Notes: a model not told the origin generated them from the sequence alone. Shown: positions 38,245-44,065, counted from the stretch's first letter. The stretch is DNA of 64,000 nucleotides from Candidatus Odyssella sp. (GCA_020726185.1 DYTB01000002.1:3188-67187); one strand, 5' to 3'. Numbers and translations: made by a program.

Positions 38245-39276
38245 TTAAAATAGGGACAATGAGACGGAGGTTATCTCTTCCAAAGTTGTAGGTGTGCGAC
38301 AAACCGGACAAAATTGGTTACCCATTAACCATTCTGTAATTTCAGGACAGTTAAACAAATGTCCACAACGTGTTTGCTTTGGTTCAATAAAGGTTGGATT
38401 AAAAGAATTTCTCTCTTCATGAGCTTGTTGCATCACTTTTAATTCTTGAAGCATTGAATAGGATACGCTCATCACTTCCCTATCAGATTGATCCGCTAAA
38501 GGAACTAACATTCCAAATAACTTTTCTTGCTGGTCGTAAAGAGACTGATTTTGATCAAAAATGTCTTTTGTCAGCTGGTAGGAATTTTCCAAAAGAGTTT
38601 TCTGCTTTTGAAAATTCCCTATCATTTTTTCTTGTTGTCTTATCACTTCTTCTTGTTGATTTATAGTTTGTCTTTTTATTACTTCTTCAAGACCCCTTCT
38701 AAGAGCAGATATATCATTGATAAGAATATCATGCCGACATTTCTTCTCTTGCTGTGCTACCTCTGTTTGTTGAATTTTTTGCTTGATTTCTGGCTGTTGA
38801 TTGTATTTTCCATAAATCGTCACACTGGCACTATTTGAGAGATCACTAGCAGAAGCCGTCCATAAAGAACCACCTGCAACTATCGCTCCTACAACACTAC
38901 CGACAACTGATCCTGATCCCCAAAAGAATGGATTACCCAACTGAAAATCGGAAACATACGTCACCTGATACAGTCCTTCAGCTGGATTAACTAATTGACG
39001 ATTAAAATATCCTCTTCCTTCAATTTTTTCTTCAACATGTGTAAAAGGAGCTTTAAGAGGATACTGAAATGTTTTACTTGTTCTTCCCAAAACATCCGAA
39101 AAAACTTCCTTCCATAATACGCAATCCCTCTGATCATTGATCATTTCTTCTCTCATTTGCTGCAGCTCAAATATTTCTCTTTCCAAGTAACATCTTTCTT
39201 CTTCTTTCCTTTGCAATAGTCTGTGCATTTCTTCTTGTTGTAAAAAGCTTGTTGTGTGCAACTTAAATCTTTCCAT
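38245..39276 (-). CDS. coiled-coil protein with a C-terminal RING/U-box-like motif (candidate E3 ubiquitin ligase mimic)
   Basis: 343 aa with no signal peptide. Q/E-rich coiled coils, the Gly-zipper hydrophobic segment GSGSVVGSVVGAIVAGGSLW, and a C-terminus FIEPKQTRCGHLFNCPEITEWLMGNQFCPVCRTP (C-x-H...W...CPxCR). Confidence 0.55.
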   Translation of the reverse strand: MERFKLHTTSFLQQEEMHRLLQRKEEERCYLEREIFELQQMREEMINDQRDCVLWKEVFSDVLGRTSKTFQYPLKAPFTHVEEKIEGRGYFNRQLVNPAEGLYQVTYVSDFQLGNPFFWGSGSVVGSVVGAIVAGGSLWTASASDLSNSASVTIYGKYNQQPEIKQKIQQTEVAQQEKKCRHDILINDISALRRGLEEVIKRQTINQQEEVIRQQEKMIGNFQKQKTLLENSYQLTKDIFDQNQSLYDQQEKLFGMLVPLADQSDREVMSVSYSMLQELKVMQQAHEERNSFNPTFIEPKQTRCGHLFNCPEITEWLMGNQFCPVCRTPTTLEEITSVSLSLF

Positions 39277-39325
39277 CTCTTTTTCAATGTGGTTTGTTTG
39301 AGTTGCTATCTCTTCTAATGTTTTT

Positions 39326-40441
39326 TCATAATATTTTAAGCGTAAGAGTAAATTCCGTTTGTGCTGCAGTTGTTATTTCACTAGTCATTCCCCTCATTAC
39401 ATCTTTCAAAAGAAAACTCATGCGATCGTTACCAAGAAAATTAATGGCATCTCTTTCTATTGGCGGAAGTGTTTGTAAGTCTTGTAGCAACTCACCGCTA
39501 CTTTCTCCATTATCAAGAACATTAATTACCCTTAAGTTTCTTTCAAGGTTAAACAGACGACAAAGAAACGCCATCTCCTGTGACGAAGATTGTGAAAATT
39601 CCCTAATAGTTGCTCCAAACCTTTCCAAATTTCTCCTTTCTTCTTTATGAGAGCTTTTTTTATTGGCAACAAACATTACAGAAGGATTAGCAGTATCTGT
39701 TTTAAAAATACTATTCAGCATTGATAATAAGTTTGTAAAAAGAGATCCGCGTCCCCATTGCATATCTGTATCTCTAAAAATTGCTGTACATTTTATGGAG
39801 CGTGCATTACATGCAATCATCTGCATGATTATCGATGTACAAACTGTCGATTCGTCCTCACGTGTATCTGCAAAACCTGGACAGTCACAAAAGGTCAAGG
39901 ATTGATCACCAAGTGTATATAGTGAAGGATACATTGTGACTGAAAAAGCTCCATGGCCTATTCTAGGTCCAGCTGTGTCTTCATCTGGCTCTATGAGATA
40001 ACTTCCAAAATTACCTCTATTTTCTCTTAACTTACTTCCTAATAAGTAATGAATGAGCGTACTTTTCCCCGACCCTGTATTGCCTACGATAAAGACTATA
40101 TTTTTTCCTTTTGCTTGCTCAATTACTGATTGTGATTGAATCAATATTGTTTTGAAGCGCTCCACATCTATTTTTCTTTCCAAAGCAGCGCCAAGCATCC
40201 CAGCTAGCGCAGCTCCCTGGCTATGGCCTGTAAAAACTACGGTTGCTTTACGTATATCAGATGTAAAAGACTGAAATGCAGCATTACCCTTTAATCCATC
40301 AAAGCTTCCGGTTATTTGCCATACTGGTATCTTCGTAGGTGCTGCGACAACTGCCTGACTAAGTATCTGTTGATGATTGCATAACATGCATTCTATTTTT
40401 CCGCGCGAACCACTACGTTGCTTGAGTACCCCCGATGGCAC
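39326..40441 (-). CDS. P-loop GTPase-like protein (AIG1/Toc-type G motifs) preceded by a GxSxG motif; probably the C-terminal part of a frameshifted gene
   Basis: G1 GNTGSGKST, G3 DCPGF(ADT), possible G4 NKKS. Upstream is VVFTGHSQGAALAGMLG (lipase-like GxSxG). It overlaps ORF 40393-40947 by 49 nt. Confidence 0.6.
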   Translation of the reverse strand: MPSGVLKQRSGSRGKIECMLCNHQQILSQAVVAAPTKIPVWQITGSFDGLKGNAAFQSFTSDIRKATVVFTGHSQGAALAGMLGAALERKIDVERFKTILIQSQSVIEQAKGKNIVFIVGNTGSGKSTLIHYLLGSKLRENRGNFGSYLIEPDEDTAGPRIGHGAFSVTMYPSLYTLGDQSLTFCDCPGFADTREDESTVCTSIIMQMIACNARSIKCTAIFRDTDMQWGRGSLFTNLLSMLNSIFKTDTANPSVMFVANKKSSHKEERRNLERFGATIREFSQSSSQEMAFLCRLFNLERNLRVINVLDNGESSGELLQDLQTLPPIERDAINFLGNDRMSFLLKDVMRGMTSEITTAAQTEFTLTLKIL

Positions 40442-40947
40442 TCGTTACAACGTGTACTTTTTTCTTCTATGCCCTTATATCGCGTTAAAAACTCTTTAAC
40501 AGCAATCTTGGGAACTGCCTCAACGATAAACTTCTCGATATCTCTTTTGGTTCCTAAACTCTCTCTCATTATACTAAAATCCGAGATTAGCATTGTGGCA
40601 ATTTCTTGAATTTCTTGTGAAAAAAAACTTTCGATATTAATTCTTCCCAAAGTACTTATAATGCTATCAAGTTCTTGCTGTACTTTTTGCTGCTGACAGC
40701 TTTCTTCTTTGATAAGAATTCGATTAATGAAGTGGTTAAAACTTCTTAAGCCCTGATAAATTCCTGCCCCTTGTTGATCTAGAGGTAATATTTCTCCAAG
40801 ATTCATTAATATTTTTGTGCCAATAGAAATGGGATAGTGCCATTCTTCGCTCCCTGCATCCCTTCGCATCTCTTCTGTCGAGTAAAGAGAAGAAAGTGCT
40901 AAAAATAAAGTCATGAGTAATTGGTAAATCATTTTTATCCCATTCAT
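40393..40947 (-). CDS. hypothetical secreted protein; probably the N-terminal part of the downstream GTPase-like gene
   Basis: Signal peptide MIYQLLMTLFLALSSLYS. It ends at TAG 40395-40393, right after an A5 run. One extra A would fuse it in frame to 39326-40441. Confidence 0.45.
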   Translation of the reverse strand: MNGIKMIYQLLMTLFLALSSLYSTEEMRRDAGSEEWHYPISIGTKILMNLGEILPLDQQGAGIYQGLRSFNHFINRILIKEESCQQQKVQQELDSIISTLGRINIESFFSQEIQEIATMLISDFSIMRESLGTKRDIEKFIVEAVPKIAVKEFLTRYKGIEEKSTRCNECHRGYSSNVVVRAEK

Positions 40948-42747: not shown

Positions 42748-42837
42748 TGGCGGAGAGGAAGGGATTCGAACCCTCGATACGTTTAACCGTATACACGAAT
42801 TCCAATCGTGCGCCTTCAACCGCTCGGCCACCTCTCC
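42748..42837 (-). tRNA. tRNA-Ser (anticodon GGA)
   Basis: Reverse complement GGAGAGGTGGCCGAGCGGTTGAAGGCGCACGATTGGAATTCGTGTATACGGTTAAACGTATCGAGGGTTCGAATCCCTTCCTCTCCGCCA. 90 nt, long variable arm, anticodon loop TTGGAAT, encoded CCA. Confidence 0.95.
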
Positions 42838-42910
42838 AAAGGATTATTGAAGAATACTTGATTTTTTTTTGTGCAGCAAGGGGATGCGCACAGCTTTTGC
42901 TATACATTCA

Positions 42911-44065
42911 CTAAGAAAAACAGCACCAACTGTTGTTAGGAATTCCAAGGCGTGACATTACTATTCTTAGGTTAGCAGTAGCATCGTTAAGATTTCCTCT
43001 AATAGCAGGAGAGTAGCAATAGTAAAAAGCTCTCATCCTGCGTAATTCCAGATTACTTTGTATACATAATTCAGTAATAAGATCGAGTTTTCCTGCTAAT
43101 AAGTCACCATCCAGCAATTCAGGAGATTGCCCTAGTGTATTAATCACAAAAATATTTTCTTCTCTTACATCTCTTAATGCATCATCACCAGCTGTTACAA
43201 GGCTTTTTAAAGATTCTAGCTTTAGGTCTTTTTCACCAATTGCAGCTGTTGCTTCATCTCTTGATAGATACTGAGTCAAAGAACCGATAATACGATCATG
43301 AAGTAATACAGACGAATTAAAAGTACTATTAGTTTCCCGTTTTCTTGTAACTAACAATCCAGCATCATCAGTATGGGTTTCAATTTTTGAGATAGTTATA
43401 CTCTCAACAACAAAAGGGAAATAAACTTCTACGCGGTTTCCAAATAAACGACCAACTTTGTATCCGCAATTTATAATATTGTATTTTAATGATGCTTTAT
43501 TTTCTAAGTTTATAAGGCCATCAAAGCCCAAATAAAGGGTATCTTCACCTTCAGCCGTTGGAATTATTTTAAGTGTTTGAAAGCGTTGCAAAAGCGCTTT
43601 TTTAACTTCTGAAGCGTAGCCTTTGCCTTGATGAGCTCTATGGTATTTTCCATCTGTAGATAAATAGCATTTAGTCTCATGATTGTCATGAAAATTATGA
43701 ATATCAATAAGACCAACAAGAGTCTCAGAATCTTTCAAAAATGCTCCGTAATAAATTTTTTGGAGCTCTCGATCTTGTCTTAATGTGCTGATTTCTGTTG
43801 AGCTGCCAAGAATAAGTTCTTGCGTTAAAAGTGAAGCTTTTGTATCTGTTTTGATAATTTCAACAAAGCTAGAATCAGAAGCATTAACAGCTTTTGCCGC
43901 TTTATAGTCAGAAGGAATTAGTGGGCGAACAGACATTTTTTCTGTTTCAAAACTCAATTTGCTTATTAACGAGGAAACGGCTGCAGATGAAACATCTGCC
44001 AATTCGACAGCTGCGTTTAAATTTAAAAAATTAAGAAAAGCAAATACGTAAAATAGTTTGTTCAT
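42911..44065 (-). CDS. secreted GNAT-domain protein ending in a CaaX box (CCFS)
   Basis: Signal peptide MNKLFYVFAFLNFLNLNA. The central block VGLIDIHNF...YLSTDGKYHRAHQGKGYASEVKKALLQRF...LINLENKASLKYNIINCGYKVG is a RimJ/RimL-type GNAT pattern. The C-terminus is ...PNNSWCCFS* (verified on DNA: TGG TGC TGT TTT TCT TAG). Confidence 0.6.
   Translation of the reverse strand: MNKLFYVFAFLNFLNLNAAVELADVSSAAVSSLISKLSFETEKMSVRPLIPSDYKAAKAVNASDSSFVEIIKTDTKASLLTQELILGSSTEISTLRQDRELQKIYYGAFLKDSETLVGLIDIHNFHDNHETKCYLSTDGKYHRAHQGKGYASEVKKALLQRFQTLKIIPTAEGEDTLYLGFDGLINLENKASLKYNIINCGYKVGRLFGNRVEVYFPFVVESITISKIETHTDDAGLLVTRKRETNSTFNSSVLLHDRIIGSLTQYLSRDEATAAIGEKDLKLESLKSLVTAGDDALRDVREENIFVINTLGQSPELLDGDLLAGKLDLITELCIQSNLELRRMRAFYYCYSPAIRGNLNDATANLRIVMSRLGIPNNSWCCFS

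What the first reader, a model, noticed from the sequence alone, without database searches (positions are those of the whole stretch)
38245..44065. tRNA-Ser-flanked block of eukaryote-like and secreted ORFans: candidate host-manipulation (effector) locus
Consecutive minus-strand genes (38245-39276, 39326-40441 plus 40393-40947, 40996-42420, 42911-44065) bracket tRNA-Ser(GGA) at 42748-42837. They sit between ordinary blocks: MarR/GNAT/methyltransferase on the left and xseA/hemA on the right. None resembles a core bacterial function. Each carries a signature typical of eukaryotic signalling: a RING/U-box-like C-terminus, AIG1/Toc-type P-loop GTPase motifs, a protein-kinase-like catalytic loop (HGDAHTGN plus IDY), and a GNAT domain ending in a CaaX box (CCFS). 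Three have N-terminal signal or anchor peptides. By eye the block is more AT-rich and homopolymer-rich than its flanks. Two genes carry a single disabling lesion, as expected for fast-evolving accessory cargo. tRNA-adjacent, compositionally distinct blocks of eukaryote-like genes are how effector islands look in Legionella, Coxiella, Rickettsiales and amoeba symbionts. I see no integrase, transposase or secretion-system gene here, so mobility and export route are unknown. I do not recognise this combination (E3-like, GTPase, kinase-like and prenylatable acetyltransferase in one locus) as a described system.
Basis: partly seen in the sequence, partly recalled or inferred. Interest (0 to 1): 0.8.

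Follow-up and report, generated by a model that had tools for sequence, protein, structure and literature searches.

The report
Decaying effector-like gene slot beside tRNA-Ser
Next to a serine tRNA gene in an uncultured freshwater alphaproteobacterium lies a strain-variable, AT-rich slot with three exported "eukaryote-facing" genes: a kinase, a large GTPase/ubiquitin-ligase-like protein and a lipid-tag-bearing acetyltransferase; the first two are already broken here, so it reads as host-manipulation cargo being lost rather than a working system.

Summary
The ORFs, tRNA-Ser(GGA) and low-GC composition are real. The gene model is not. The "E3-like" ORF (38245-39276), the "GTPase" ORF (39326-40441) and the ORF at 40393-40947 are three fragments of one ~890-aa gene. 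That gene is intact in related metagenomic contigs: signal peptide, N-domain with a CxxC…CxxC motif, septin/AIG1/IRG-like GTPase, coiled coil, one-zinc RING/U-box. In the window it is broken by a 1-nt and a 5-nt deletion.

The upstream kinase-like gene belongs to the APH / small-molecule-kinase fold family, not the eukaryotic protein-kinase type, and carries a CAA→TAA nonsense codon. Kinase followed by GTPase-E3 is a conserved two-gene module, seen in at least six contexts, some next to IS elements. Its only plasmid-borne relatives are in protist endosymbionts (Megaira, Neochlamydia, Paracaedimonas).

The closest lineage (~95% nt) lacks the 4.6-kb module and has swapped the acetyltransferase (GNAT) for an unrelated gene. 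A sister species keeps the same layout with independent lesions. Module dS (0.11-0.21) is far below flank dS (0.40-1.25), which indicates recent exchange. The GNAT is intact, fast-evolving (dN/dS 0.39), and keeps a conserved C-terminal CCFS/CCVS.

The effector-locus reading is partly supported. There is no integrase, no att repeat and no secretion system gene, and host association is unproven.

The parts
42911..44065 (-). Intact gene for a 384-aa exported GNAT acetyltransferase. It has a signal peptide (MNKLFYVFAFLNFLNLNA|A), an Acetyltransf_3 domain at residues 46-165, an uncharacterised C-terminal half, and the terminal CaaX-like motif CCFS.
   Evidence: Pfam Acetyltransf_3 scores 27.2 bits, above the cut-off of 25.4. 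Of 15 homologues, the 10 close ones (aligned identity 73-78%; 71-76% by BLASTP) all end in NNSWCCFS or CCVS, and those at 37-40% identity lack it. Against the sister species, dN/dS is 0.39 and dS is 0.37, similar to the neighbouring xseA at 0.40. In the L005 lineage the gene is replaced by an unrelated 283-aa gene, with the last ~34 nt of the GNAT left behind.
42748..42837 (-). tRNA-Ser(GGA). It is conserved in all related lineages. Its 3' end faces the variable module.
   Evidence: ARAGORN and Rfam tRNA at 57.4 bits. The same tRNA is present in L005, L008, L015 and L017.
42386..42737 (.). Spacer between the tRNA and the kinase gene. It is window-specific: 42503-42737 has no counterpart in L003, and 42386-42692 has none in L015/L017.
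   Evidence: blastn coordinates. No tRNA-end direct repeat was found.
40996..42420 (-). Pseudogene of an exported APH/ELK-type kinase, 477 aa when intact. The likely true start is the ATG at 42330 (MRTIKLW…, a signal peptide). Invariant motifs are GKKAFK, HGDAHxGN and FIDY. A CAA→TAA nonsense codon at 41229-41227 removes the conserved C-terminal ~70 aa.
   Evidence: Intact orthologue at L003:3039-4472. Lesion mapped. Family alignment with invariant catalytic residues. Weak Pfam APH and OspG_kinase matches at the catalytic loop, and homologues carry Pfam APH / Choline_kinase. The AF2 model has pLDDT 63. Its best Foldseek matches are MTR kinase (5.5e-6), glucosamine kinase, APH(7''), AmiN, APH(2''), FN3K and choline kinase; eukaryotic protein kinases match only weakly.
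38245..40947 (-). Pseudogene of a single ~890-aa exported multidomain protein, read by the first stage as separate 'GTPase' and 'E3-like' genes. A 1-nt deletion at ~40426 and a 5-nt deletion at ~39369 split it into ORFs of 184, 371 and 343 aa.
   Evidence: The intact 894-aa orthologue P0006 and the 881-aa P0055 align end to end with the three fragments. Indels mapped. Identical lesions appear in two other assemblies of the same sequence.
40330..40947 (-). N-terminal part of the large gene. It holds the signal peptide (MNGIKMIYQLLMTLFLALSSLYS|T), a helical N-domain and a conserved CxxC…CxxC(N)H motif (RCNECHRGY-FKQRSGSRGKIECMLCNH). The 1-nt deletion falls inside this motif.
   Evidence: Alignments. 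The motif is conserved in P0083 (36% identity) and in the L026 orthologue.
39452..40114 (-). GTPase domain of the large gene. G1 is GNTGSGKST, G3 is DCPGFADTR and the G4-like motif is NKKS. It belongs to the septin / AIG1 / IRG / Toc-like region of the TRAFAC GTPases.
   Evidence: phmmer against 1.84 billion representatives found 2,733 relatives (E≤1e-3) and 596 at E≤1e-10. Of 54 sampled, 44 hit MMR_HSR1 and 11 hit AIG1. The family profile against PDB gives IRGB10 at 1.8e-4, septins at ~1e-3 and Toc33 at 2e-3. The low-confidence AF2 model matches mitofusin, GIMAP2, IRGs and Toc34.
38248..38409 (-). C-terminal one-zinc RING/U-box-type domain (…EPKQTRCGHLFNCPEITEWLMGNQFCPVCRTPTTLEEITSV…). It keeps the CxH…CxxC tetrad of RING zinc site II and lacks site I, as in SP-RING/zf-Nse.
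   Evidence: On its own it gives only sub-threshold Pfam RING hits (zf-rbx1 at 20.8 bits against a cut-off of 31). An HMM of this domain hits the C-termini of ~20 GTPase-family relatives (E 1.6e-15 to 1e-4). In nine of the ten top-ranked of these that were scanned, Pfam calls U-box (down to 1.8e-14), zf-Nse (1.7e-12) or RING at the same coordinates; the tenth (P0148) gave no such hit. The family profile hits BRCA1 RING (4e-6) and PUB12 U-box (2e-5) in PDB. dN/dS for this domain is 0.10-0.37.
38858..38911 (-). Window-specific 54-nt in-frame insertion. It lengthens a Gly/Val-rich hydrophobic segment (GSGSVVGSVVGAIVAGGSLW) between the two coiled-coil stretches.
   Evidence: Indel map and alignment.
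38126..42737 (.). The 4.6-kb segment (kinase plus large gene) that is present here and in the sister species but absent from the closest lineage. That lineage has 21 bp at this point.
   Evidence: blastn of the window against L005-L014, whose flanks are ~95% identical. Junction sequences.

Best explanation
The locus is a variable accessory slot on both sides of tRNA-Ser(GGA) in the chromosome of an uncultured freshwater alphaproteobacterium. It holds cargo of the kind that protist-associated bacteria use against eukaryotic cells, and here that cargo is being lost.

Shown:
1. Three genes, not four. (a) An intact, fast-evolving, signal-peptide-bearing GNAT with a conserved C-terminal CCFS. (b) An APH-type kinase gene with a signal peptide, killed by a nonsense codon. 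(c) One ~890-aa gene (signal peptide, N-domain with CxxC…CxxC, septin/AIG1/IRG-like GTPase, coiled coil, one-zinc RING/U-box), killed by two frameshifting deletions.
2. Kinase followed by GTPase-E3 is a conserved, co-oriented two-gene module found in several lineages. It is sometimes flanked by IS elements.
3. The module has been exchanged more recently than the host species diverged. It was deleted in the nearest lineage and independently inactivated in the sister species.

Inferred mechanism for the intact versions:
- The products leave the cytoplasm by Sec and reach a host cell by an unidentified outer-membrane route.
- The large protein assembles on a host membrane through its nucleotide-dependent GTPase and coiled coil. 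Its RING/U-box recruits a host E2 to ubiquitinate or SUMOylate targets.
- The partner kinase modifies the large protein or a host small molecule or lipid.
- The GNAT is farnesylated by the host at CCFS and acetylates targets at host membranes.

In this window only the GNAT can still work.
For: - One gene, three lesions.
- Module conserved as a pair in the window, L015/L017, L003/L004, L016, L020/L021 (50% / 36% aa identity) and L026/L027 (62%).
- Mobile neighbours. L003 has an IS1595-like transposase fragment (my reading of the translated fragment, not tested against a model). L026 has a resolvase, an IS240 DDE transposase and an rve fragment that truncates the large gene.
- Absent from the ~95%-identical lineage. 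Same layout with different lesions in the sister species, a GTDB representative titled 'uncultured Alphaproteobacteria bacterium AM-2014_bin-2127'.
- Synonymous divergence, window versus sister species: module 0.11-0.21, flanking core genes 0.40-1.25.
- Composition outlier, intrinsic to the module.
- U-box/RING identity by transitive profile evidence. GTPase class. Kinase class. GNAT plus conserved CCFS/CCVS.
- tblastn against 72,556 plasmids. The GTPase hits only Ca. Megaira (3 records) and Neochlamydia S13. The kinase hits only a Ca. Paracaedimonas acanthamoebae plasmid.
- Literature precedent: host-farnesylated CaaX effectors (PMC2916131); RING/U-box E3s, kinases and GIMAP/AIG1-like GTPase effectors in amoeba symbionts (PMC3417536); Rab-GTPase-U-box fusions in Legionella (bioRxiv 10.1101/350777).
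- Inference: GTP, ATP, acetyl-CoA, E2~Ub and farnesyltransferase are not available in a periplasm. Exported proteins with these domains therefore imply a eukaryotic cytosol as the workplace.
Against: - Nothing shows that the organism lives with a eukaryote. The window is ordinary chromosome (ftsZ, leuS, hrcA, degP, hflKC, pdh, flagellar genes) with no secretion-system gene.
- Sec signal peptides are not the usual mark of T3SS/T4SS substrates.
- The kinase and the GNAT fall in fold families that are common in free-living bacteria.
- The window's own RING and AIG1 Pfam scores are below threshold, and the AF2 model of the large protein is poor (pLDDT 45).
- CCFS has non-canonical a1/a2 residues.
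- Two of the three genes are dead here.
Confidence: 0.6

Rival explanations
1. The genes encode ordinary envelope or periplasmic proteins, or secreted proteins aimed at other bacteria or at the environment. On this view the eukaryote-like motifs are coincidental. The kinase would be a small-molecule or antibiotic kinase and the GNAT a RimJ/RimL-like acetyltransferase.
For: All three products carry Sec-type signal peptides. The kinase's best structural matches are small-molecule kinases. JGI and NCBI name the GNAT orthologues RimJ/RimL or GNAT family. No secretion system or host marker is present in the window.
Against: ATP, GTP and acetyl-CoA are absent from the periplasm. The RING/U-box-type domain is linked by profile to bona fide U-box/zf-Nse domains. 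The CaaX-like end is conserved in an otherwise fast-evolving protein. Plasmid-borne relatives occur only in protist endosymbionts.
Confidence: 0.2
2. It is a classical genomic island that integrated site-specifically into tRNA-Ser through an integrase, as in pathogenicity islands, and arrived recently in this strain.
For: It abuts the 3' side of the tRNA, starting 10 bp after it. It is compositionally distinct, absent from the nearest lineage and has low dS relative to the flanks.
Against: No integrase or transposase lies in or next to the block. There is no duplicated tRNA 3' end or other flanking direct repeat. The same layout occurs in a sister species. In L003, L016, L020 and L026 the module is not next to a tRNA. 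The remnant of the GNAT 3' end in L005 shows cassette replacement by recombination rather than integrase activity.
Confidence: 0.1
3. It is an intracellular conflict or anti-phage defence system built from an NTPase, a kinase and a ubiquitin-ligase-like domain.
For: Defence loci are accessory, AT-rich, fast-turnover and often tRNA-adjacent. P-loop NTPases and kinases are common defence parts. There are weak P-loop-only matches to LeoBC, mad3 and mad8.
Against: The PADLOC matches cover only ~30-75 residues around the P-loop, at E ~3e-4. There are no PHROG matches of substance. Signal peptides on every component are incompatible with cytoplasmic sensing. There is no E1/E2/DUB partner.
Confidence: 0.05
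4. It is an assembly artefact or eukaryotic contamination stitched into a bacterial contig.
For: The domain content is eukaryote-like and the composition shifts across the block.
Against: The same junctions are recovered at 100% identity in an NCBI assembly and an independent Logan assembly. The sister-species version is seen on many contigs from many samples. The genes are intron-less, have bacterial signal peptides and are embedded between conserved bacterial genes.
Confidence: 0.01

Closest known systems
Eukaryote-like effector repertoires of protist-associated bacteria (Legionella, Amoebophilus, Parachlamydiaceae, Holosporales/Rickettsiales symbionts)
   Same: The same domain palette occurs in accessory, AT-rich, rapidly turning-over genes: RING/U-box E3, kinases, GIMAP/AIG1-like GTPases, CaaX tails (PMC3417536, PMC2916131, bioRxiv 10.1101/350777). 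The nearest plasmid-borne relatives are in Megaira, Neochlamydia and Paracaedimonas.
   Different: The host organism here is an uncultured freshwater alphaproteobacterium of unknown lifestyle. The products carry Sec signal peptides rather than recognisable T4SS/T3SS features. No secretion system is seen in the window. Two of the three genes are pseudogenes.
Legionella Rab/Ras-like GTPase-U-box fusion proteins
   Same: A GTPase domain is fused to a U-box in one secreted protein (bioRxiv 10.1101/350777).
   Different: The GTPase here is of the septin / AIG1 / IRG / Toc-like kind, not a Rab/Ras small GTPase. It is followed by ~350 aa of coiled coil and a one-zinc RING variant, preceded by a signal peptide and a CxxC…CxxC N-domain, and paired with a dedicated kinase gene.
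SP-RING / zf-Nse (Siz/PIAS, Nse2) and U-box E3 domains
   Same: It retains only the CxH…CxxC zinc site II of the RING cross-brace. Family members score on Pfam zf-Nse (1.7e-12) and U-box (1.8e-14) at the homologous position.
   Different: The window's own domain is below Pfam thresholds. No confident structure model was obtained. Ub versus SUMO specificity is unknown.
APH / choline kinase / MTR kinase family (eukaryotic-like kinase fold, small-molecule kinases)
   Same: The catalytic loop HGDxxxxN, the metal-binding D in FIDY and the β3 lysine are all present. The top Foldseek matches are MTR kinase, glucosamine kinase, APH(7''), AmiN and APH(2'').
   Different: It carries a signal peptide, is lineage-restricted (10 homologues among 5.8 billion clusters), and is genetically coupled to the GTPase-E3 gene. 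Its substrate is unknown.
CaaX-motif bacterial effectors (Legionella AnkB and Pel proteins, Salmonella SifA/GtgE)
   Same: There is a cysteine at position -4 with serine as the X residue. The motif is conserved across 10 orthologues although the protein is fast-evolving.
   Different: The a1/a2 residues are C-F or C-V, not a canonical aliphatic pair. The cargo domain is a GNAT. Prenylation is untested.

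Membership tests
RING/U-box E3 superfamily | Significant match to a RING/U-box profile | tested here: inconclusive
   The window ORF alone gives zf-rbx1 at 20.8 bits (cut-off 31), zf-C3HC4 at 18.1 (21) and zf-Nse at E 0.15, all below threshold. The transitive evidence is positive. The domain HMM hits ~20 relatives (E to 1.6e-15). In nine of the ten top-ranked of these that were scanned, Pfam calls U-box, zf-Nse or RING above cut-off at those coordinates. The family profile hits BRCA1 RING at 4e-6 and PUB12 U-box at 2e-5.
RING/U-box E3 superfamily | Zinc-ligand pattern (8 ligands in RING, 4 in SP-RING, 0 in U-box) | tested here: met
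   CxH…CxxC (site II) is conserved in the window, P0006, P0055, L017 and P0083. Site I ligands are absent. This is the SP-RING-like one-zinc pattern.
RING/U-box E3 superfamily | E2 binding and ligase activity | not testable with these tools
   Needs biochemistry. The AF2 model of the C-terminus has pLDDT 25-40.
AIG1/GIMAP/Toc (septin-like TRAFAC GTPases) | Pfam AIG1 model at or above the gathering score | tested here: not met
   The window fragment scores 14.2 bits against a cut-off of 27, on the P-loop only. Of 54 family relatives, 11 match AIG1 at E≤1e-3, and one (P0141) reaches 27.6 bits over 204 of 212 positions.
AIG1/GIMAP/Toc (septin-like TRAFAC GTPases) | G1 (GxxxxGKS/T), G3 (DxPG) and G4 (NKxD) motifs | tested here: inconclusive
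   G1 GNTGSGKST and G3 DCPGF are present and nearly invariant in the family. G4 reads NKKS/NKTS and lacks the Asp.
AIG1/GIMAP/Toc (septin-like TRAFAC GTPases) | Closest solved structures are of this class | tested here: inconclusive
   Profile against PDB gives IRGB10 at 1.8e-4, septins at ~1e-3 and Toc33 at 2e-3. Foldseek on a low-confidence model gives mitofusin, GIMAP2 (TM 0.55), IRGs and Toc34, but also Gα.
APH/ELK phosphotransferases | Catalytic loop HGDxxxxN, metal-binding Asp and β3 Lys conserved | tested here: met
   Invariant H341 G342 D343 N348, D362 (FIDY) and K155/K159 (GKKAFK) in 10 sequences.
APH/ELK phosphotransferases | Profile or fold match | tested here: met
   The window ORF scores 20.2 bits on Pfam APH, below the cut-off of 23.2. 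Homologues P0067 and P0068 carry precomputed APH / Choline_kinase hits. All 30 Foldseek hits at E≤1e-3 are APH-type kinases.
Eukaryotic-type protein kinases (ePK) | Pkinase profile or fold as best match | tested here: not met
   No Pkinase Pfam hit. ePKs appear only from rank 41 at E>0.01 and probability 0.57-0.85. OspG matches only ~35 residues at E 0.2.
GNAT acetyltransferases | Pfam GNAT model above the gathering score | tested here: met
   Acetyltransf_3 scores 27.2 bits against a cut-off of 25.4, residues 46-165. Eight of the 9 close orthologues are annotated PF13302.
CaaX-prenylated effectors | Cys at -4 from the C-terminus, conserved, with an X residue suited to farnesyltransferase | tested here: met
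   CCFS here. CCFS or CCVS in all 10 close orthologues. Absent in homologues at 37-40% identity.
CaaX-prenylated effectors | Delivery to the host cytosol and host-dependent prenylation | not testable with these tools
   Requires expression in eukaryotic cells and translocation assays.
tRNA-integrated genomic island | Integrase gene and flanking direct repeats derived from the tRNA 3' end | tested here: not met
   No integrase. No tRNA-end repeat.
tRNA-integrated genomic island | Deviant composition and variable presence among close relatives | tested here: met
Class 3 lipase (Pfam Lipase_3 hit on GHSQG) | Conserved GxSxG nucleophile elbow within an α/β-hydrolase domain | tested here: not met
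   The match is 35 residues at 20.7 bits, below the cut-off of 22. The motif is absent in P0083 and in the L026 orthologue. There is no room for a full hydrolase domain.
Known anti-phage defence systems (PADLOC) | Match to a defence-system protein model beyond the P-loop | tested here: not met
   Only P-loop-region matches at E ~3e-4 for the large protein, and none for the kinase or GNAT.

The most novel reading that the evidence does not exclude
The intact form of the broken pair may be an undescribed mobile two-gene effector module of protist-associated bacteria. It would consist of a Sec-exported APH-like kinase and a Sec-exported 'GTPase - coiled coil - one-zinc RING/U-box' protein. The GTPase domain belongs to a family of about 2,700 cluster representatives. 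In 9 of 54 sampled members (about one in six) it is fused to a U-box, and other members carry zf-Nse or RING. That would make this a class of nucleotide-gated, membrane-assembling E3 ligases delivered by bacteria, here with a dedicated kinase partner. The neighbouring GNAT-CaaX would be a host-lipidated acetyltransferase effector in a lineage not known to be host-associated.
Probability: 0.35. Interest if true: 0.7.

Novelty: new variant of a known kind. Interest (0 to 1): 0.5.

Why it matters
If the reading is right, an abundant but uncultured freshwater alphaproteobacterial lineage interacts with eukaryotic cells. It is seen in dozens of lake metagenome assemblies. It would gain, swap and lose effector cargo at a fixed chromosomal slot.

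The intact orthologues define a compact, testable module: kinase plus GTPase-coiled-coil-RING/U-box. The GTPase family is large and unannotated, and repeatedly carries U-box, SP-RING or RING ends. This is a candidate class of GTP-regulated bacterial E3 ligases.

For the window itself the practical message is more modest. Two of the three genes are pseudogenes, and automatic annotation splits one gene into three 'hypothetical proteins'.

Tried and rejected
- **Lipase_3 / GHSQG motif in the large protein.** The motif is not conserved in more distant orthologues. Rejected as a domain.
- **att-type repeats or an integrase around the tRNA.** None found.
- **Sequence-only PDB searches with the kinase and GNAT family profiles.** Only marginal hits at E ~0.1.
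- **AF2 model of the full 881-aa orthologue.** Too poor outside the GTPase core (pLDDT 45), so the RING/U-box fold could not be confirmed structurally.
- **Possible shared N-domain.** I compared the large protein with the 1,018-aa protein downstream of the kinase homologue on the Paracaedimonas plasmid. BLAST gave E 0.014, but the real protein was not among the eight best-scoring sequences when 1,000 shuffles were searched with a family HMM. Not supported.
- **PADLOC and PHROGs.** Nothing beyond P-loop matches.
- **Taxonomy of the GTPase-family hits through cluster names.** No names available.
- **Scan of GTDB species representatives with the kinase profile.** Found only the sister species.
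- **Homopolymer enrichment.** Not significant.
- **Search for secretion-system genes in the 64-kb window.** None. The rest of the genome could not be examined.

Full report
**1. What is in the sequence**

ARAGORN and Rfam both find tRNA-Ser(GGA) at 42748-42837 on the minus strand. The window is alphaproteobacterial chromosome. It has a permuted alpha-type tmRNA at 5902-6297, a 5-aminolevulinate synthase, and core genes: ftsZ, leuS, hrcA, ubiE, degP-like, hflK/C-like, pdh E1β/E2 and fliL/fliM.

The block is a compositional outlier.
- 38126-44084 has GC 0.3595. The mean for 6-kb windows is 0.393 (sd 0.011). None of 923 outside windows is as low.
- Its tetranucleotide distance to the window average is 0.235-0.251, against 0.183 ± 0.025.
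- The low GC is a property of the module and not of its decay. The intact copy in L003 has 0.360, beside an upstream gene at 0.414.
- Homopolymer density is not unusual.

**2. The gene model is different from what was reported**

An exact-sequence cluster look-up placed the 184-aa ORF (40393-40947) in one 90% cluster with an 894-aa protein, P0006, from lake metagenomes. P0006 and an 881-aa relative (P0055) align end to end with three window ORFs: 40393-40947, 39326-40441 and 38245-39276. The 'GTPase' and the 'E3-like' ORFs are therefore pieces of one gene.

A nucleotide alignment with the intact copy (L003) maps the lesions.
- A 1-nt deletion lies at about 40426 and a 5-nt deletion at about 39369. 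Together they remove 6 nt, so the last fragment returns to the original frame.
- There are also several in-frame indels, including a 54-nt insertion at 38858-38911.
- The upstream kinase-like gene is 477 aa when intact (L003:3039-4472). In the window a CAA→TAA change at 41229-41227 removes the conserved last ~70 residues.
- The same lesions are present in two other assemblies of this sequence.

Only the GNAT gene (42911-44065) is intact.

**3. Comparative context**

- *Closest lineage.* Contigs whose flanking genes are about 95% identical in nucleotides (L005-L014) go directly from the SRPBCC gene to the tRNA. Window 38126-42737 is replaced by 21 bp. In the same contigs the GNAT is replaced by an unrelated 283-aa signal-peptide protein. 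The last ~34 nt of the GNAT gene (…NNSWCCFS*) survive just after that gene's stop codon. The GNAT was therefore ancestral and was swapped out by recombination.
- *Sister species.* L015/L017 is a GTDB species representative titled 'uncultured Alphaproteobacteria bacterium isolate AM-2014_bin-2127'. Its flanks are 76-88% identical. It has the same order: xseA, GNAT, tRNA-Ser, kinase, large gene, SRPBCC. Its lesions are different: a 2-nt insertion in the kinase only ~20 nt from the window's stop codon, and a 1-nt deletion in a T-run of the large gene.
- *Intact copies elsewhere.* Intact copies of both genes occur away from any tRNA (L003/L004, L016). L003 ends in a sequence that translates to DKHNHINGIENFWNQAKRR, which looks like the end of an IS1595-type transposase (my reading, not tested against a model).
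- *More distant pairs.* The kinase-plus-large-gene pair recurs in GCA_965184335.1 (50% / 36% aa identity). It also recurs in L026/L027 (62%), next to a resolvase, an IS240-type DDE transposase and an rve fragment that truncates the large gene just before its last domain.

**4. Evolutionary rates**

| Comparison (window vs sister species, unless stated) | dS | dN/dS |
|---|---|---|
| Flanking core genes | 0.40-1.25 | 0.03-0.13 |
| Kinase | 0.11 | 0.13-0.20 (all pairwise comparisons) |
| Large gene | 0.21 | 0.36-0.42 (all pairwise comparisons) |
| GNAT | 0.37 | 0.39 |

- The module has a more recent common ancestor than the genomes that carry it. That means exchange between species at a conserved slot.
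- Within the large gene, the RING/U-box end is constrained (dN/dS 0.10-0.37). The GTPase part is more relaxed in comparisons involving the window (~0.6). This fits recent inactivation.
- The GNAT has the flank-like dS of 0.37 but dN/dS of 0.39. It is vertically inherited and fast-evolving.

**5. Domain identities**

- *GNAT.* Pfam Acetyltransf_3 is above threshold. Fifteen homologues were found. The ten close ones all end in CCFS or CCVS, and the distant ones do not.
- *Kinase.* The residues GKKAFK, HGDAHxGN and FIDY are invariant. Some homologues carry Pfam APH / Choline_kinase. An AF2 model (pLDDT 63, with a good C-lobe) finds MTR kinase, glucosamine kinase, APH(7''), AmiN, APH(2''), FN3K and choline kinase. 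Eukaryotic protein kinases match only weakly. It is a kinase of the APH/ELK family, which is not in itself a eukaryotic signature.
- *Large protein, GTPase.* phmmer of the 371-aa fragment against 1.84 billion representatives finds 2,733 relatives. Among 54 sampled, 44 match MMR_HSR1, 11 match AIG1, 9 match U-box (best 4e-14) and 7 match zf-Nse. Several match RING models. The family profile hits IRGB10, septins and Toc33 for the GTPase part. The AF2 model of the whole protein is poor (pLDDT 45). Its GTPase core matches mitofusin, GIMAP2, IRGs and Toc34, and also Gα.
- *Large protein, C-terminus.* An HMM of the last 110 residues of our family hits the C-termini of about 20 of the GTPase relatives (E down to 1.6e-15). 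In nine of the ten top-ranked hits that were scanned, Pfam calls U-box, zf-Nse or RING at the same coordinates. The family profile hits BRCA1 RING (4e-6) and PUB12 U-box (2e-5) in PDB. The conserved ligands are CxH…CxxC, which is zinc site II of a RING, without site I. This is the SP-RING/zf-Nse pattern.
- *Lipase_3 match.* The GHSQG match is not conserved and is rejected.
- *Signal peptides.* All three products begin with n-h-c signal-peptide-like segments that are conserved in their orthologues. Several U-box-bearing relatives have lipobox signal peptides, which marks them as bacterial.

**6. Who else has these genes**

- tblastn of the 894-aa protein against 72,556 plasmids hits four records only. 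Three are Candidatus Megaira/Megaera plasmids, from symbionts of the ciliate Euplotes and the alga Mesostigma. One is from the amoeba symbiont Neochlamydia S13.
- The kinase hits one record, a plasmid of the Acanthamoeba symbiont Candidatus Paracaedimonas acanthamoebae.
- The GNAT hits none.
- PADLOC and PHROGs give nothing beyond P-loop matches.

**7. Most likely function and mechanism**

Shown: the anatomy, the pairing, the accessory and exchanged status, the decay, and the domain classes.

Inferred:
- Each product is exported by Sec, yet needs ATP, GTP, acetyl-CoA, an E2~ubiquitin (or SUMO) conjugate or a farnesyltransferase. The place of action is therefore most plausibly a eukaryotic cytosol.
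- The intact large protein would assemble on a membrane through its dimerising GTPase and coiled coil and act as an E3.
- The co-transcribed kinase (48-bp gap between the genes) would modify it or a host metabolite or lipid.
- The GNAT would be anchored by host farnesylation of CCFS.

The published precedents are CaaX effectors (PMC2916131), E3, kinase and GIMAP-like GTPase effectors in amoeba symbionts (PMC3417536), and Rab-U-box fusions in Legionella (bioRxiv 10.1101/350777).

In this window the kinase and the large gene are dead. The closest lineage has already lost all three genes, so the slot shows effector turnover.

**8. Caveats**

- Nothing in hand shows that the organism is host-associated.
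- No secretion system is visible in 64 kb.
- Sec signals are atypical for T3SS/T4SS cargo.
- The window's own RING and AIG1 scores are sub-threshold, and the RING/U-box assignment rests on transitive profile evidence.
- The taxonomic make-up of the 2,733-member GTPase family is unknown.

**9. Verdict**

- The locus is a new variant of a known kind: eukaryote-like effector cargo.
- The most interesting element is the conserved kinase plus GTPase-coiled-coil-RING/U-box module, not the particular broken copy in this window.

Noticed in passing
window 33226-34509 (variable part 33238-34366): A second hypervariable gene lies 4 kb to the left. It is a 427-aa ORF with an N-terminal hydrophobic segment and no Pfam/NCBIfam family. 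It has no nucleotide alignment to the ~95%-identical lineage, although both flanks align at 95-97%. Relatives carry 387-448-aa genes without Pfam hits at the same place.
   Followed up: partly
L008, L009, L014 (e.g. L008 2563-4782 and 5407-7626): Some relatives carry a tandem duplication of the marR / small GNAT / DNA-alkylation-repair / ABC ATPase block that forms the left flank of the finding.
   Followed up: no
window 41229-41227 and L017 ~11172: The kinase gene is truncated in two lineages by independent lesions only ~20 nt apart: a nonsense codon here and a 2-nt insertion in the sister species. Both remove the same conserved C-terminal ~70 residues. This may be coincidence or selection for a shortened product. 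It is unexplained.
   Followed up: partly
L005 9729-9767, aligned to window 42911-42945: The last ~34 nt of the GNAT gene, encoding …NNSWCCFS*, persist as a non-coding remnant directly after the stop codon of the unrelated 283-aa replacement gene. This marks a recombination breakpoint inside the 3' end of the gene.
   Followed up: yes
L003 1-2625 and 7300-7390: The intact module in L003 is preceded by an 874+-aa Gly/Ser-rich protein with no Pfam hit. It is followed by a sequence that translates, on the opposite strand, to DKHNHINGIENFWNQAKRR, which resembles the end of an IS1595-type transposase.
   Followed up: partly
L026 11343-13934 and 13947-14342: In this orthologue the large gene ends just before the RING/U-box, next to an rve (IS3-type) transposase fragment. 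At the position of the window's GHSQG it has DGGGIRSLIP, which resembles the patatin oxyanion motif. Both may be remnants of a lost hydrolase segment, or chance.
   Followed up: no
L024 (Ca. Paracaedimonas acanthamoebae plasmid CP008937.1) 4083-5558 and 5548-8604: The only plasmid-borne kinase relative is followed, with overlap, by a 1,018-aa signal-peptide protein. That protein has a CxxC…CxxC motif at a position similar to the one in the large protein here, but it has no GTPase domain. Similarity was marginal by BLAST and not supported by HMM against shuffles.
   Followed up: yes
window 463-1203, 1352-1954, 7860-8585, 15839-16960, 21511-22278, 28270-29877, 48169-48771, 60576-61496: An unusually large share of ORFs of 200 aa or more in this window have no Pfam family at all. 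The genome may hold many more lineage-specific proteins like those in the finding.
   Followed up: no
window 38858-38911: A window-specific 54-nt in-frame insertion extends a Gly/Val-rich hydrophobic stretch (GSGSVVGSVVGAIVAGGSLW) in the middle of the coiled-coil region of the large pseudogene. Orthologues have a shorter, weakly hydrophobic segment there.
   Followed up: no
window 5902-6297: A two-piece (permuted) alpha-type tmRNA gene, useful as a taxonomic marker for Alphaproteobacteria.
   Followed up: yes
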